A DNA stretch of 64,000 nucleotides, taken from the IMG/VR virus record IMGVR_UViG_2913112809_000002, one strand, 5' to 3'. Positions 24,001-30,000 of this stretch are shown here, one piece after another. The position numbers were made by a program. The DNA is from a virus (lineage: Duplodnaviria; Heunggongvirae; Uroviricota; Caudoviricetes). The first letter of the stretch is position 1. The number at the start of each line of letters is the position of its first letter.

Positions 24001-27000
24001 CTGCTGGCGTATGACCAAAGATGAACGTGTCCGCGCCTTTGATTTCTTTCACGATCCCGTCTTGTGAGTTGCTGATTCGTTCGCGGTTCCAGATTACCTG
24101 CTGATGATCAACTGGCTTTCCAAACTCGTATTCGTCACAAGGATAATCGGCGTGGCAGATGACATATTTTTTATCTTTGCTCACCAGTTCGATGATTAAC
24201 GGAAGTTCATCTGCTTTATGGGCAAGAGCTTTAGCCAGAATTTCTTTGTCGTAATCGAGATTAAAGAACCAGCCACCGCCATTAAGCATCCAGTGATTGA
24301 CGTTTCCGCGCTCTGATAAGCCATCAATCATCATTTGCTCATGGTTTCCACGTACAGCTCTGAACCAGGGGAATGTGATTAATTCCAGGCATTCGACGTT
24401 CTCTGTACCGCGATCGACCAAATCGCCAACCGAGATAAGCAGGTCTTTTTTGGTGTCGAATCCTATCGTCTCCAGTTTTTTCATCAGGTTCGTGTAGCAT
24501 CCGTGCAGATCGCCAACTACCCAAATATTTCGGTATTTGCTGCCATCAATTTTTTCGTAATAGCGCATCTCTTTCACTCCATCCGCGATGAACCATGAGA
24601 ACGTCGTTGACGATGGCGTGCATTTTCCCGTCTTTATCATCAACGTATTTTCTGACCGTACCGCGACTACATTTCAGTCTGCGTGCTACTTCTGTCTGGT
24701 TTCCGTATGCTTCAACGAGCATGTCTGGAATGGTTTTTACTGAGAACGTCATGCGGCCTCACTTCTGCTATTTCGCAGGTCTTTGAGTTTCTGTTGGTAC
24801 TCTGCCTTGATCGCCTTGCACTCTTCGATAGTCCAGCGATGGCGGTTATGGTTTGATTCGATTTCGTCTACTGCTTCCTGCCCGATGCGGCTAATCAGTT
24901 CGACGCGATACGGAACGAGATTTCCGCTTTTGTGCTGGTTGCACACCACGCATTGCTTGTGAATATTGCGTTCATCAAATCGGAGTTGAGGTGCCGCAGC
25001 AGTTGTCCGGTAATGTCCGGCATCCCACTGAGCAGACGTGAGCGTTCCGCACGAGATACATGGTAAGTCGCGGTCTCTTTCTCTGATGAAGGCGTTTACG
25101 GCTTGTTGGGCTTGTTTAATCCAGTAACTGCGGGGCTTTAAGGCGAGTTTTCGAATCTTAAGTTTATCTTTCTGTTTCTGCTCCTCTCGTCGTCGTTTCT
25201 TCTCTGCTGCTTTTTCCGCTTTTTTGCGTTCTTTACTTCGTCGTTCGAGTGCTATCTTGGTTCCACACTCTGGAGAGCACCACCACTGATTAGCGAATGC
25301 AGGGTGAAACCATTCCCGACATTCATCGTTTTTACATCGTCTTCGCGCTGGTTTAGCCATCGTCTTCTTCCTCGTACATTGAGCTATTCGGATCGCTCAT
25401 CAGTTCTGCGCAGCAATCGGAGCACACGTGAACTTCCAGCACATGCAGCTTCTGACCGCAGTTAGCGCACGTTAAAGCTCGCTCGACGCTTTCTTTCTGG
25501 TATTGAAGAGATTGGGATGGACTAAGCATTATTAGCGTCCTGCATCATGAGAAAGACAATCATGGCGGCGCGGAGAGGCGATTCGCCACAGAAGCAGTAG
25601 CCAGGAATATTTTCCCATTCCCAACAACCTTCCTCTAAATCACCTCCTGACCATGCGCACCATTCTTTTTCCGCTGTCATCCACATAGTGCTGATTTTGC
25701 TTTCAGTGATAATTGGCCACGCGTATTCAGGATTATTGCAAGGATTGAAGCAATTCCCGTTTGAAGAACGGAAGCCATTAATATCCCTTTTTTGCGTCTG
25801 CCAAATAGGACCTCTTTCGTCAGTGGGGATCTCAGAATCGAAGTCTGCTTCGTCATCAGGTATGAAGAAATGCTCCTCCATATCTAAAGCCTCACATACT
25901 CGTCTGTTAATTTCAAAATCACTTAACTGTGAATAATCCATTGTCATTTCCTCGCACGATGTCTTAGCCACCGGATATCCAACAGGTGAGCCGTGTAGTT
26001 GAAGGTTTTTACGTCAGATTCTTTTGGGATTGGCTTGCGTTTATTTCTGGAGCGTTTCGTTGGAAGGTATTTGCAGTTTTCACAGATTATGTCGGTGATA
26101 CTTCGTCGCTGTCGTCTCATTCGTACCTCCTGTCGGTAAATCTGACGCCCTGACCAATAGCCCATGCTGTCGTGTACTCAATCAGACTTGCCATACGCTT
26201 CACACTCATCTGCGCGCTACTTTCGCGAATGTTGACGTATTCGCCTTCAAGGCCGGGCAAAACATCAGCTTCCTGCTTTGTTGCCACTGCATGACCGCTA
26301 ATCAACAAAACCTTCCATTGTTCTGGTTTTAACCACTTATCGCACCATTGAACCTGACGTGCGATATCCGCCAGCATCGCGTGAAATTTTGCGTTCTGGT
26401 CAAGGTTGCGCTTGTAGTCAGTAATGCGGATGGTGACTGGCTTGTCTTTATCGAGTGGTGTTGCGAGGATGGCATTTATTGCAGCTTGCTGTTGTTGTTT
26501 AGTTCGGAGGAAGATTGTTTGCTTCATCGAAATTCTTCTCTTTAATTCCAGCGGCTCTGATAGCTTTCATTACTGCAATTACCGTTTTGTCTCTCCCATC
26601 CTCATAACCCATCGCATAAGCACCTTCTTCACCATCTTTCCAAAAGTCGTCATTCGATTCGGGCCAGTCAATATCCAGTTCAATAGCTGCTCGCGATGCC
26701 TGCCACGTTTGCCAGTGGCCTTGAACATCGTCCATCACGTATTGACCACCAATATCACCACTGCCAATTTCATGGTGATTTTCAGGGTAACGGATAAGGT
26801 CTGAGGATTCGCCTCCACGTCGCAACCAACTTTCTTCAAACTGCTTTCTTGATTCGTCCATCGATACTTACCCTCAGTTCAACTCACAAAACGCCACGCC
26901 ATTTTTGCTACAGCGACAGGCATAACACCGATAATCACCCACAGGAAAATGCTACCGAAAAGCACACCCACCAGGTCTTTACCTTCGCCTACCAACCGGA

Positions 27001-30000
27001 CAAAACTGCTGGCAACAACAATGAACGTCGCCACCATCCACATAGCACCGAGAATCCTCAATGCAGAGAAAATTAACTCAGCCACGATTTACCCTCCCCC
27101 CCAAATAAAAAGGCCTGCGATTACCAGCAGGCCTGTTATTAGCTCAGTGATGTAGATGGTCATACGTCAGCCCCTTGTGCATATCGTCTGCCACGCGCAG
27201 CAGGTGCATTTGATGCTGTGCAAATCTGTCTGGCTTCATCCTGGTCACATGCAACAAAGTGTCCGTTGCAGAACCGCTGGTAAACCGTACCAAGTGAGCC
27301 AAAACGGTTTTTCGTCACGATGATTTCAGCAAATGGCGCGGCGCTACTGTTCTCGTCATATACCGCTTCCCGATAGAGCATGATGATTGAGTCTGCGTCC
27401 TGCTCAATGCTTCCTGAATCACGCAAATCTGCGTTTGTCGGACGTTTGTTTGGTCGCTTCTCAACATCGCGCGAAAGCTGACTCAGGGAGATAACCGGTG
27501 TTTTCAGGTCTTTCGCCATCGCCTTCAGGCTTCCGGAGATGTGAGCAATTGCGAGGTCGTTGCGGTCTGCTTTCGGCTTCTCAATCAGGCCAAGATAATC
27601 CGCCATGATGAGTGACAGGTTTGGATTTTCCTGTTTGTGCCGCTCTGCGATTGAGCGAATTTCTTCGACCGATAACCGCGAGGCATCGACTACCCATACA
27701 TCCAAATCTGCAAGCTGACTCATGCCGTTAGCAACACGCGCCCAGCCTTCGTCATCCATCGATGCAGGATTTCGCAGCACGCTAACCGACATCCTCCCGG
27801 CGTTGGCAATACTTCGCTCTGCAATCTGCAATGCGCTCATTTCCATTGAGAAAATCAATACTCCGCGCCGGACGTCAGAACCAGGAATAACACGACTTGC
27901 AACGCCTTCGGCAATCTTCAGCGCCAGTTCGGTTTTCCCCATACCAGGACGAGCGGCGATAATCACCAGGTCTTCTGCGTTCATCCCTCCGGTGATGGCG
28001 TCAAGTTCTTCGATTCCGGTCTTCAGGGTATCTGACTCTTCTCCGTTCCTCAGACGCCTGTCAAGCGTGTCAGTGTAGTCAGTGATGATTTCCCCTAACC
28101 GTACAGGTTTAACCTCGTCACGGGGCTTTCTGATGGCTGAAAGACGCTTTACAAACTCATCCATCGCCTGACTCGATGCGTCGATGGTTCCGCTCTGAAT
28201 TGGTTCACGCATTTCATCCATGATTTCCAGCACCAGACGGCGGTGATAGTTATCCGCGACCATTCCGGCATATCCCTTCAGGTTTGCGGCACTCGGGCAG
28301 TTTTTGCTGGTCATCAGGATTGACGTGAAATGCTCCTCTCCGCACGCCTCGGCAACCATCAGCGCGTCGATTAGGTTTCTGTTTCGCGCCTGCTTCCGGA
28401 TAACCTCGAAGGCTTTCCGGTAGAGCGGAATTGAAAACGCTTCCGGCTCAAGCGTTGCCAGAACGTCACTGGCAGTTGGTGTTAATCCACCAATCAGCAG
28501 GCCACCGATAACGCTCGCTTCGATATCCTGTTTCATGCAATCCCCCTGTCTGCAAACTTTCCTTCCCGTACTCCCGTTAACGAATCTTCCCTCAGCAGGT
28601 AATCAAAATCTGCCGTCCAGCCCGTGTCGTTGTCTCCGAAGTAAAACGGCTTTGCCTGATGCACAAACGCCCTGACATACGCTCTGAAACCGTCCACATT
28701 TGGCGTTTTCAGTTGCGGGATGATTTTCTTCAGGCGGCGTTTGCGTTTCTCGTTGACCGCAACAGCGTGTGGCAGTCTGTCACCGACTTCGGTGTTGTAG
28801 GCGTTCAGGAAGGATTCGTAGTCGATTCGTTCTGCCTTGCGACGTTCAGGTTTAACCTGCCCATCGCCTCCCCCATTGGGGGGTAGGGGGGTATTATTTA
28901 TATTCTTGTTAATACCTTCTTGTTCATGATGTGCGGTTGTTTGTGCGGCTCCATGTGCGCTTTCATGTGCGGCATGTGCCCTGAAAGCCGCGCCATTACT
29001 GGCTTCGTCATGTGCGGCTTCATGTGCGGTTGTTTGTGCGGCTTCATGTGCGGGTGAATCGTCCATTTTTTGAGCATATTCATGGTAATTTGTGATGGTG
29101 ATCACACGACCTTTTTGCTTCTCTCCATCAATGGAGATCATCCCCTCTTTCACAAAAACCTGAAGCATCCGCTCAACCTGATCACGGCTTGCTGGCTTGC
29201 CATGCCTGTCGCATAACTGAAGACCTAAATCAGCTGCTGTCACAACCAGTTGACCGGGTTGCAGATGCCATTCATGACCTTTGAAATTCGCTTTGTATGG
29301 CTTTCTGGCGGCATTCAGGAGAAGGTTTTCCCACAGGGTGCGAAGATAAACATCTTTCGCCCATGACTGTTTCAGAATGCTCCGGTACAACGGAATGTAA
29401 CCAGTTTTCTGGTTCTCCATCCTGTTGCTCCTGCGCTCGTGTGCGGCGCTGAAATCGTAGATTTTTGCTGTATTGCTCATAACTACCTGCCTTGACGAAA
29501 GACCTTAAGAACATCGTTAAACTGACTTACGGATATGTCTTCTTTGAGAAGCTTTTCCAGAAATGCGTTTGGAATGAACGTATATCCCTCCTCTTTTGGT
29601 AGAGACGGGAGCAACGCCCTCGCCTCAGCCTTCAGAAGCTCAGTTCTGGCAACTTTCACAAAAGAGATTTGAGTTCTTTCATCAATGGAACGAAGGAAGC
29701 GCAAACGCTTAGCTTCTTTGTGTGTATCAGGTGGATTAAAGCCTTTGTTTCGCATATAATTACCTCGTTGGATGTTGTTAAAATTCCATTTGTATTTGAT
29801 CAGAACGCTCGGTTGCCGCCGGGCGTTTTTTTATTGGTGAGTCCATCCAATGCATACTTAAAAGCCCTGCTAATCGGACTGATGTCTGATGCCATTCCAA
29901 AAGCACACAAGACCGAAGCAATAAATCTCCAGTCCGTTCTGCTTATCTTCGATTCATGACAGCCAATCATCTTTGCCAGACCGCGCTGGGTAAGCGTTGA

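What the first reader, a model, noticed from the sequence alone, without database searches (positions are those of the whole stretch)
25522..27085. Non-lambda insertions in the nin region
Among recognisable lambda nin genes sit a Cys/Trp-rich 141-aa protein (replacing ninC/ninD), an acidic 120-aa protein and a 68-aa two-TM membrane protein, none of which I recognise.
Basis: partly seen in the sequence, partly recalled or inferred. Interest (0 to 1): 0.3.

Follow-up and report, generated by a model that had tools for sequence, protein, structure and literature searches.

The report
Ordinary lambdoid nin-region accessory genes
The three "unrecognised" proteins are real genes, but all belong to widespread, already catalogued families of small lambdoid-phage accessory proteins (NinX, Phage_phiTE_015 and a small membrane protein), so this is the normal gene shuffling of this phage region, although nobody yet knows what any of the three does.

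Summary
In detail: three ORFs lie on the minus strand at the stated coordinates, tightly packed among NinB, NinE and NinF in the early-right operon of a lambdoid prophage. None is new. The 141-aa Cys/Trp-rich protein is a NinX/DUF2591 member (Pfam PF10765, 53.8 bits against a cutoff of 22.6). It is 40% identical to P22 NinX and sits between ninE and ninF as in P22, not in the ninC/ninD slot. The acidic 120-aa protein belongs to Pfam PF26207 (Phage_phiTE_015), with relatives in HK022, Stx phages and Pectobacterium phage phiTE. The 68-aa protein is a two-helix membrane protein (phrog_1165), identical in HK75, HK629 and HK630, and under purifying selection (dN/dS about 0.3). All three exact sequences are already public (on 17, at least 1000 and 291 contigs), named "NinX family protein" or "hypothetical protein". 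The 120-aa gene is an intragenic recombinant: HK022-like at the 5' end and Stx-phage-like at the 3' end, joined in the conserved WQASRAAIE core. Their functions are uncharacterised. No enzyme-like or defence-system signature was found. I infer non-essential host-interaction or anti-defence accessory proteins, with low confidence. Verdict: already known, low interest.

The parts
27111..27134 (-). tR2-like intrinsic terminator just after the helicase stop
   Evidence: 8-bp stem (6 GC), 8-nt loop and a T-run. Window 27163..27103 is 96.7% identical to the HK620 segment that carries the annotated tR2.
27089..27163 (-). NinA-like 24-aa ORF ([24 protein letters not shown]); its ATG overlaps the helicase stop (ATGA) and it spans the terminator hairpin
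   Evidence: Translation. Nearly identical to the annotated NinA of P22 (26 aa) and HK620 (27 aa).
26879..27085 (-). 68-aa small two-helix membrane protein gene (phrog_1165), GTG start
   Evidence: phrog_1165 E = 3.5e-37, full length 1-68/68. 100% identical in HK75, HK629 and HK630, 94% in HK022, 56% in HK620, 44% in Salmonella phages. dN/dS 0.26-0.39 against pN about equal to pS in the other frames. Hydropathy. Exact sequence on 291 contigs, named 'hypothetical protein'.
26499..26861 (-). 120-aa acidic protein gene, Pfam PF26207 (Phage_phiTE_015) / phrog_343; the last ~10 codons overlap the ninB start out of frame
   Evidence: Precomputed PF26207 hit on this exact protein. hhalign against phiTE_015: probability 98.3%, E = 1.2e-14. 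phrog_343 E = 2.7e-34. 755 representative clusters in the exhaustive search. Exact sequence on at least 1000 contigs.
26680..26705 (-). Intragenic mosaic junction inside the 120-aa gene (codons 53-61, WQASRAAIE)
   Evidence: Window 27100..26680 is 97.1% identical to HK022 and window 26705..26518 is 93.6% identical to VT2-Sakai. The two matches overlap only at codons 53-61.
26117..26527 (-). NinB (Orf recombination mediator)
   Evidence: PF05772, 182 bits.
25944..26120 (-). NinE (58 aa from the ATG that overlaps the NinB stop)
   Evidence: PF05322, 142 bits, matching residues 16-73 of the longer 73-aa ORF. GGAGG lies upstream of that ATG.
25522..25947 (-). NinX / DUF2591 family protein, 141 aa
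   Evidence: PF10765, 53.8 bits (cutoff 22.6), profile 1-114/114. phrog_444 E = 1.7e-42. 99.3% identical to a phiv205-1 protein and 40% to P22 NinX. Exact sequence named 'phage protein NinX family protein'.
25353..25529 (-). NinF (downstream flank; overlaps the NinX stop by 8 nt)
   Evidence: PF05810, 51.6 bits; sequence.

Best explanation
The segment is the start of the nin region of a lambdoid prophage. On the minus strand the order is DnaB-type helicase, tR2 terminator with NinA mini-ORF, 68-aa membrane protein, 120-aa PF26207 protein, NinB, NinE, NinX, NinF, NinG, NinH, NinI, Q. The three 'unknown' genes are ordinary members of three widespread families of small accessory proteins, assembled here by the usual mosaic recombination of lambdoid phages. 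One crossover lies inside the 120-aa gene. SHOWN: family membership, conserved position, purifying selection on the 68-aa gene, tight translational packing with no internal promoter above chance, and the mosaic junction. INFERRED from the lambda paradigm: they are transcribed from pR only after antitermination through tR2, as delayed-early genes that are dispensable for growth. INFERRED with low confidence (about 0.3): NinX and the PF26207 protein are non-enzymatic, acidic cytoplasmic proteins that act by binding a host or competitor protein, as takeover or anti-defence factors. The 68-aa protein is an inner-membrane hairpin, probably with both termini in the cytoplasm, acting on a membrane target or excluding other phages.
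For: Identity: family HMMs and profile comparison; same order in RefSeq E. coli prophages, phiv205-1, HK630, P22, HK022 and VT2-Sakai; exact sequences already public and named. Operon structure: ATGA and 8-nt overlaps and Shine-Dalgarno sequences. Only 2 promoter-like sites in 5 kb against 5.9 expected by chance, and a tR2-like terminator. Tight nin packing, and dispensability of the lambda nin genes, are documented in PMC8022706 and PMC10695390. GC content of 0.44-0.49 is like the flanks. Mosaicism. Functional inference: every homolog is acidic, with NinX net charge -21 to -1 and PF26207 -14 to -3. The listed PF26207 relatives are small stand-alone proteins of 51-161 aa with no enzymatic fusion. 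There is no conserved Cys cluster. Variable modules are swapped around conserved cores. Anti-restriction genes are neighbours: a Lar-like gene next to phiTE_015, Lar and Dam near PF26207 in VT2-Sakai and L020. A virulent myovirus, phiTE, carries both a NinX homolog (35% identity) and a PF26207 gene within 1.7 kb of each other.
Against: No experiment or publication assigns a function to any of the three families. The structure models are only moderate (pLDDT 77 and 76; pTM 0.73 and 0.49). Fold searches found only uncharacterised proteins for NinX (1r7l, E = 0.15; BFVD) and nothing for the 120-aa protein. The anti-defence idea rests on neighbourhood and charge alone. The PF26207 assignment relies on a precomputed hit, because the local Pfam copy lacks that model. 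Transmembrane topology is from hydropathy only.
Confidence: 0.88

Rival explanations
1. The three genes are foreign 'moron'-type insertions, new to lambdoid phages, as the title of the finding implies.
For: They are absent from lambda itself. The 120-aa and 68-aa proteins have no hit in the local Pfam or NCBIfam libraries.
Against: They occur at the same position in hundreds of phage records (145, 107 and 437 records). The DNA of the region matches 2265 of 5426 complete E. coli genomes. The genes are on the same strand, packed with ATGA overlaps, with no own promoter or terminator. GC content is like the flanks. NinX is a named P22 nin gene.
Confidence: 0.03
2. The 68-aa gene and the PF26207 gene form a functional two-gene module: a membrane anchor plus an acidic cytoplasmic partner.
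For: In all 6 distinct contexts of the exact 68-aa protein, a PF26207 gene follows, directly in five and after one inserted gene in L017. This also holds in HK022 and in Salmonella phage 103203_sal5. The HK022-like 97% block spans the 68-aa gene and the 5' half of the PF26207 gene. L014 has a different small hydrophobic ORF in the same slot.
Against: PF26207 genes occur without any membrane neighbour in VT2-Sakai (orf28 is soluble) and in phiTE (016 and 017 are soluble). HK620, HK630 and HK75 have the 68-aa gene with no PF26207 gene before ninB. The 6 contexts are few and were all selected for carrying one exact sequence, so they are not independent. The linkage can be purely positional, since both genes sit at the head of the nin region.
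Confidence: 0.15
3. NinX is a metal-binding or redox protein, as its Cys/Trp richness suggests.
For: 7 Cys in 141 aa, 2.7 times the neighbours' frequency.
Against: Only Cys70 is invariant. The other six Cys are present in 5-40 of 84 homologs, and homologs carry as few as 1 Cys. No zinc-ribbon or other metal-site family was matched. The enrichment is not significant after multiple-test correction.
Confidence: 0.05
4. One or more of the ORFs, especially the 68-aa GTG-initiated one, is a non-coding artefact.
For: It is short and hydrophobic with a GTG start. It is unannotated in HK620 and annotated from a downstream Met in HK630.
Against: dN/dS is 0.26-0.39 in frame, against pN about equal to pS out of frame. 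The length of 68 codons is kept between relatives only 44-56% identical. There is a strong GGAGGG Shine-Dalgarno sequence. A full-length PHROG family matches.
Confidence: 0.04

Closest known systems
NinX of Salmonella phage P22 (P22gp57, orf112; Pfam PF10765 Phage_P22_NinX / DUF2591)
   Same: Full-length HMM match above threshold. Conserved motifs NPCNNPxxAWPII and PLRAAMIVFLMMQ. Same position between ninE and ninF. Acidic.
   Different: Only 40% identical. About 29 residues longer, mainly through a longer acidic, low-confidence loop (residues ~21-66), and with more Cys and Trp. Function is unknown in both.
phiTE_015 of Pectobacterium phage phiTE and its family (Pfam PF26207); lambdoid members HK022_59, VT2-Sakai orf29 and the phiv205-1 protein noted as similar to Sf6 gene 48
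   Same: Conserved N-terminal SRxQFExW helix, WxxWQASRAAIE core and AIRAAGIK C-terminal motif. Small, acidic and stand-alone. Located early in the nin region, often near Lar and Dam.
   Different: 30% identical to phiTE_015. The window copy is a recombinant, with an HK022-type N module and an Stx-phage-type C module. It has a 13-residue tail after the usual ...GIK(V/E)K end because it reads into ninB.
HK75 / HK629 / HK630 / HK022_58 68-aa hypothetical membrane protein (phrog_1165)
   Same: 100% (HK75, HK629, HK630) or 94% (HK022) identical. Same slot immediately after tR2 and NinA.
   Different: None of substance. It is NOT NinA, which is the separate 24-27-aa ORF across tR2.
Lambda ren and ninC/ninD (the genes lambda has in the corresponding slots)
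   Same: Same operon, same non-essential delayed-early status (inferred), and the same head-of-nin slot for ren versus the 68-aa and 120-aa genes.
   Different: No sequence relationship. NinC and NinD are simply absent here, since NinB abuts NinE. NinX occupies a different slot.

Membership tests
NinX / DUF2591 (Pfam PF10765) | Score above Pfam's gathering threshold over the whole profile | tested here: met
   53.8 bits against a cutoff of 22.6; profile 1-114/114; E = 2.8e-14.
NinX / DUF2591 (Pfam PF10765) | Family-conserved residues and motifs present | tested here: met
   Invariant D10, N14, C70, A76, I79, R126 and A128, and near-invariant NP.DAWPII and LRAAM..FL, across 84 homologs.
NinX / DUF2591 (Pfam PF10765) | Gene position ninE-ninX-ninF as in P22 | tested here: met
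   Window order; P22 annotation; RefSeq E. coli prophage.
NinX / DUF2591 (Pfam PF10765) | Biochemical function | not testable with these tools
   No function is defined for the family.
Phage_phiTE_015 (Pfam PF26207) | Match to the Pfam model | tested here: met
   A precomputed unmarked hit (E at most 1e-5) on this exact protein in four contexts, and on all 120 listed homologs. I could not rerun the model because the local Pfam copy lacks it.
Phage_phiTE_015 (Pfam PF26207) | Homology to the name-giving protein phiTE_015 | tested here: met
   BLASTP 30% identity, E = 2e-8. hhalign probability 98.3%, E = 1.2e-14 over 92 columns.
phrog_1165 (68-aa membrane protein) | Full-length HMM match | tested here: met
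   E = 3.5e-37, 1-68/68.
phrog_1165 (68-aa membrane protein) | Two transmembrane helices / membrane location | tested here: inconclusive
   Two Kyte-Doolittle peaks above 2.0, conserved in relatives. No dedicated topology predictor or experiment was available.
NinA (P22 orf26 / HK620 ninA) | 26-27-aa ORF overlapping the helicase stop and spanning tR2 | tested here: not met
   The 68-aa protein is not NinA. The window has a separate NinA-like 24-aa ORF at 27163..27089. My earlier reading was corrected.
Lambda NinC / NinD | Homolog present between ninB and ninE | tested here: not met
   The NinB stop and NinE start overlap (ATGA), so there is no room. No PAPS-reductase or NinD hit was found.
Known anti-phage defence systems (PADLOC-DB) | Match to any defence-protein model | tested here: not met
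   No hit at E up to 0.1 for the three proteins.
Cys-cluster metal-binding proteins | Conserved set of at least 3-4 Cys/His ligands | tested here: not met
   Only C70 is invariant; the other Cys are present in 6-48% of homologs.

The most novel reading that the evidence does not exclude
NinX, the PF26207 protein and the 68-aa membrane protein could be uncharacterised anti-defence or superinfection-exclusion factors. In that reading, the swapping of the N- and C-terminal modules of PF26207 around an invariant WQASRAAIE core reflects an arms race with variable host targets. The 68-aa hairpin and PF26207 might work as a pair.
Probability: 0.2. Interest if true: 0.5.

Novelty: already known. Interest (0 to 1): 0.1.

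Why it matters
As a discovery it matters little. The genes, their families and their arrangement are already in public databases and in classic lambdoid phages (P22, HK022, HK620, Stx phages). The only residual value is as a reminder that several very common nin-region families still have no assigned function: NinX in at least 437 phage records, PF26207 with 755 clusters at 50% identity, and phrog_1165. They sit beside anti-restriction genes and would be cheap candidates for anti-defence screens.

Tried and rejected
(1) Local Pfam and NCBIfam scans of the 120-aa and 68-aa proteins gave nothing, even at E up to 10. The PF26207 assignment came only from precomputed annotation. (2) PDB sequence searches with single sequences and with the NinX profile found nothing meaningful; the only hit was a choline transporter at E = 0.46. 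(3) Foldseek against the PDB gave NinX only 1r7l, an uncharacterised B. cereus 'phage protein' (probability 0.91, E = 0.15), plus weak dsRBD-like hits (probability at most 0.16). The 120-aa model matched nothing. BFVD returned only uncharacterised phage proteins. A literature search for 1R7L was uninformative. (4) Literature searches for NinX, DUF2591, phiTE_015 and PF26207 gave no functional study; the first NinX search was swamped by nickel-nitride chemistry. (5) PADLOC gave no hits. (6) I first read the tblastn overlap with the 'ninA' annotation as meaning that the 68-aa protein is NinA. The P22 and HK620 annotations showed this was wrong. (7) The idea of a Zn or redox Cys cluster in NinX was rejected on conservation. 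(8) An obligate membrane-partner hypothesis for PF26207 was weakened by VT2-Sakai and phiTE. (9) The exhaustive profile search for domain fusions of PF26207 found only small stand-alone proteins with optional ~35-aa N-terminal mini-modules and no informative Pfam domain. (10) One script crashed on a bug of mine after printing three comparisons; it was rerun cleanly with the same numbers. (11) The third homologous-protein search was left unused, because the 68-aa family was already adequately placed.
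Full report
OBSERVATION. The stated interval, 25522-27085, runs exactly from the stop codon of a 141-aa ORF to the GTG start of a 68-aa ORF, all on the minus strand. 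The 141-aa ORF (25522-25947) starts at an ATG that overlaps the stop of the upstream gene as ATGA. The 120-aa ORF (26499-26861) has GAGGG 9 nt upstream of its ATG. The 68-aa ORF (26879-27085) has a GTG 6 nt after GGAGGG.

The 141-aa protein has 7 Cys and 7 Trp, pI 4.06. The 120-aa protein has pI 4.47. The 68-aa protein has two strongly hydrophobic stretches separated by RLVGEGKD. The Cys/Trp richness is about 2.7-3 times that of 17 neighbouring phage proteins, with nominal p of 0.017 and 0.01. That would not survive correction for the number of proteins compared.

CONTEXT. The region is the early-right operon of a lambdoid prophage, read right to left:
- cI (plus strand), then cro, cII and a 90-aa ORF
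- an O-like initiator and a DnaB-type helicase
- a tR2-like terminator embedded in a NinA-like 24-aa ORF
- the 68-aa gene and the 120-aa gene
- NinB, NinE, the 141-aa gene, NinF, NinG, NinH and the NinI phosphatase
- Q, two tRNAs, holin, lysozyme and Rz

Genes are packed with ATGA or short overlaps. Only 2 promoter-like sites occur in 5 kb, against 5.9 expected by chance. GC content matches the flanks. Window 23000-31300 is 100% identical over the 7948 aligned bases to an NCBI assembly contig (GCA_004745255.1, L015) with the same gene order.

IDENTITY OF THE 141-aa PROTEIN. It is a NinX/DUF2591 protein:
- Pfam PF10765 scores 53.8 bits against a cutoff of 22.6, over the whole profile.
- phrog_444 matches at E = 1.7e-42.
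- It is 99.3% identical to a protein of phage phiv205-1 and 40% identical to P22 NinX.
- 1699 relatives were found in the large protein collection, many named 'phage protein NinX family protein'.
- The exact sequence is already deposited under that name.

In P22 the order is ninB-ninD-ninE-ninX-ninF. The window has ninB-ninE-ninX-ninF. NinX therefore sits in its canonical slot. It does not replace ninC/ninD, which are simply absent, since NinB and NinE overlap by ATGA. Lambda itself has P-ren-NinB-NinC-NinD-NinE-NinF.

IDENTITY OF THE 120-aa PROTEIN. The local Pfam and NCBIfam libraries gave nothing. All relatives, and this exact protein, carry a precomputed hit to PF26207, 'Phage_phiTE_015'. 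A profile of 48 relatives matches phiTE_015 itself at 98.3% probability, E = 1.2e-14. phrog_343 matches at E = 2.7e-34. The exact sequence is on at least 1000 contigs. An exhaustive HMM search found 755 clusters at 50% identity. All of the best 150 listed are small stand-alone proteins of 51-161 aa, some with an optional ~35-residue N-terminal mini-module, and none with an informative fusion.

IDENTITY OF THE 68-aa PROTEIN. It matches phrog_1165 over its full length (E = 3.5e-37). It is 100% identical in HK75, HK629 and HK630, 94% in HK022, 56% in HK620 and H-19B, and 44% in Salmonella P22-like phages. No Pfam family is on record for it.

I first took it for NinA because the tblastn hit touched a 'ninA' annotation. 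That was wrong. NinA of P22 and HK620 is a 26-27-aa ORF lying across tR2. The window has its own near-identical NinA-like ORF at 27163..27089. The 68-aa homolog in HK620 lies in an unannotated gap between ninA and ninB.

The ORF is a real gene. dN/dS is 0.26-0.39 against divergent relatives in frame, while pN is about equal to pS in the other two frames. The length of 68 codons is preserved. dS is saturated (above 1) for the most distant pairs, so those ratios are approximate.

MOSAICISM. The window is 97.1% identical to HK022 from the terminator through codon 61 of the 120-aa gene (27100..26680). It is 93.6% identical to VT2-Sakai from codon 53 onward (26705..26518). The two matches overlap only at codons 53-61, WQASRAAIE, the most conserved core of the family. 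The gene is therefore an intragenic recombinant. Across the family, different N and C modules are combined around this core. The last ~10 residues of the window copy are an out-of-frame read into ninB and are predicted to be disordered. The 68-aa gene shows the same pattern against HK620, with conserved ends and a divergent middle. This is the classic lambdoid mosaic pattern and not a new phenomenon.

WHAT THEY MIGHT DO. No paper in the searchable library assigns a function to any of the three. NinX is only listed among P22 nin genes of unknown function. Lambda phages deleted for all the nin genes still form plaques (PMC10695390).

The AlphaFold model of NinX has pLDDT 76.8 and pTM 0.73. It shows an N-terminal helix, a long, acidic, low-confidence loop (about 21-66), and a confident C-terminal alpha/beta domain (residues 73-140) carrying the conserved motifs. 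The best PDB match is an uncharacterised B. cereus 'phage protein' (1r7l, probability 0.91, E = 0.15). dsRBD-like hits are weak. BFVD returns only uncharacterised phage proteins. Only Cys70 is invariant, so there is no conserved metal site.

The 120-aa model has pLDDT 76 and pTM 0.49. It has a confident helix-hairpin-helix N-domain (residues 1-57) and no fold match. All homologs of both families are acidic. PADLOC finds nothing.

Neighbourhood gives a weak hint. The virulent myovirus phiTE carries a NinX homolog (phiTE_018), phiTE_015 and a Lar-like restriction-alleviation gene (phiTE_014) within 1.7 kb. Lar and Dam genes lie near PF26207 genes in VT2-Sakai and L020.

My best guess, at about 0.3 confidence, is that NinX and PF26207 are non-enzymatic binders of host or competitor proteins, acting as takeover or anti-defence factors. 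I take the 68-aa protein to be an inner-membrane hairpin acting on a membrane target or in exclusion.

A specific pairing of the 68-aa and PF26207 genes is suggested by the 6 of 6 contexts in which a PF26207 gene follows the 68-aa gene. It is undermined by PF26207 genes without a membrane neighbour in VT2-Sakai and phiTE, and by 68-aa genes without PF26207 in HK620, HK630 and HK75.

VERDICT. The implied novelty is not there. All three are catalogued, very common cassettes of the lambdoid nin region, and the exact sequences are already public. Novelty: already known. Interest: low (0.1). The only open question, which is shared by the whole families, is their function.

Noticed in passing
window 27089-27163 (-) and 27111-27134 (-): A NinA-like 24-aa hydrophobic ORF ([24 protein letters not shown]) starts at the helicase stop (ATGA) and contains the tR2-like terminator hairpin. 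It is nearly identical to the annotated NinA of P22 and HK620.
   Followed up: yes
window 26680-26705 (-): A recombination junction lies inside the 120-aa gene at the conserved WQASRAAIE core. It is HK022-like upstream (97.1%) and VT2-Sakai-like downstream (93.6%). The 68-aa gene is similarly mosaic against HK620.
   Followed up: yes
L010 (HK620, NC_002730.1) 1501-1707, record 12378-12584: HK620 has an intact 68-codon homolog (56% identity) of the membrane-protein gene in a gap left unannotated between ninA and ninB. HK630 annotates its identical copy from a downstream Met (52 aa).
   Followed up: partly
L014 3840-4150: In a related prophage, the slot of the 68-aa gene holds what looks like an unrelated 60-aa hydrophobic ORF (MVNAFICSLFLVAIFHGF...). 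No gene is called there, and it lies just upstream of a PF26207 gene. Relatedness to the 68-aa protein was not tested by alignment.
   Followed up: no
window 22853-22928 and 22934-23008 (-): tRNA-Thr(TGT) and tRNA-Asn(GTT) genes lie between Q and the holin. The same tRNA pair (Thr, Asn) is annotated in the prophage of E. coli NCCP15648.
   Followed up: partly
window 40331-40501 (+): Rfam match to the sok antitoxin RNA (101 bits against a gathering score of 59), implying a hok/sok-type toxin-antitoxin locus near the left end of the prophage.
   Followed up: no
window 39421-39623 (+): Rfam matches to isrK, C4 antisense RNA and the c4 a1/b1 target sites, which form a P1/P7-type antisense-controlled antirepressor module.
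   Followed up: no
window 34049-34107 (+): Rfam match to the lambda cIII thermoregulator element (86 bits), consistent with a lambda-like early-left operon.
   Followed up: no
window 43475-43628 (+): Adjacent tRNA-Thr(TGT) and tRNA-Gly(TCC) genes may mark the prophage boundary or attachment site. This was not checked.
   Followed up: no
window 29483-29755 (-): A 90-aa ORF between cII and the O-like initiator has no Pfam family on record in the identical contig L015.
   Followed up: no
L008 (phiTE, NC_020201.1) 1970-3666: The virulent myovirus phiTE has a Lar-like gene (014), the PF26207 founder (015) and a NinX homolog (018) within 1.7 kb. Two of the window's 'nin' families therefore also travel together outside lambdoid phages.
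   Followed up: partly
P0124, P0136, P0250, P0287, P0296, P0307 (relatives of the 120-aa protein): A subclass of PF26207 proteins carries an extra ~35-residue N-terminal CxxCxGTG...CxC zinc-ribbon-like mini-module. Another subclass carries a 'WAIKHKSGRVLF...' mini-module, and P0307 has both. Neither matches a Pfam family.
   Followed up: partly
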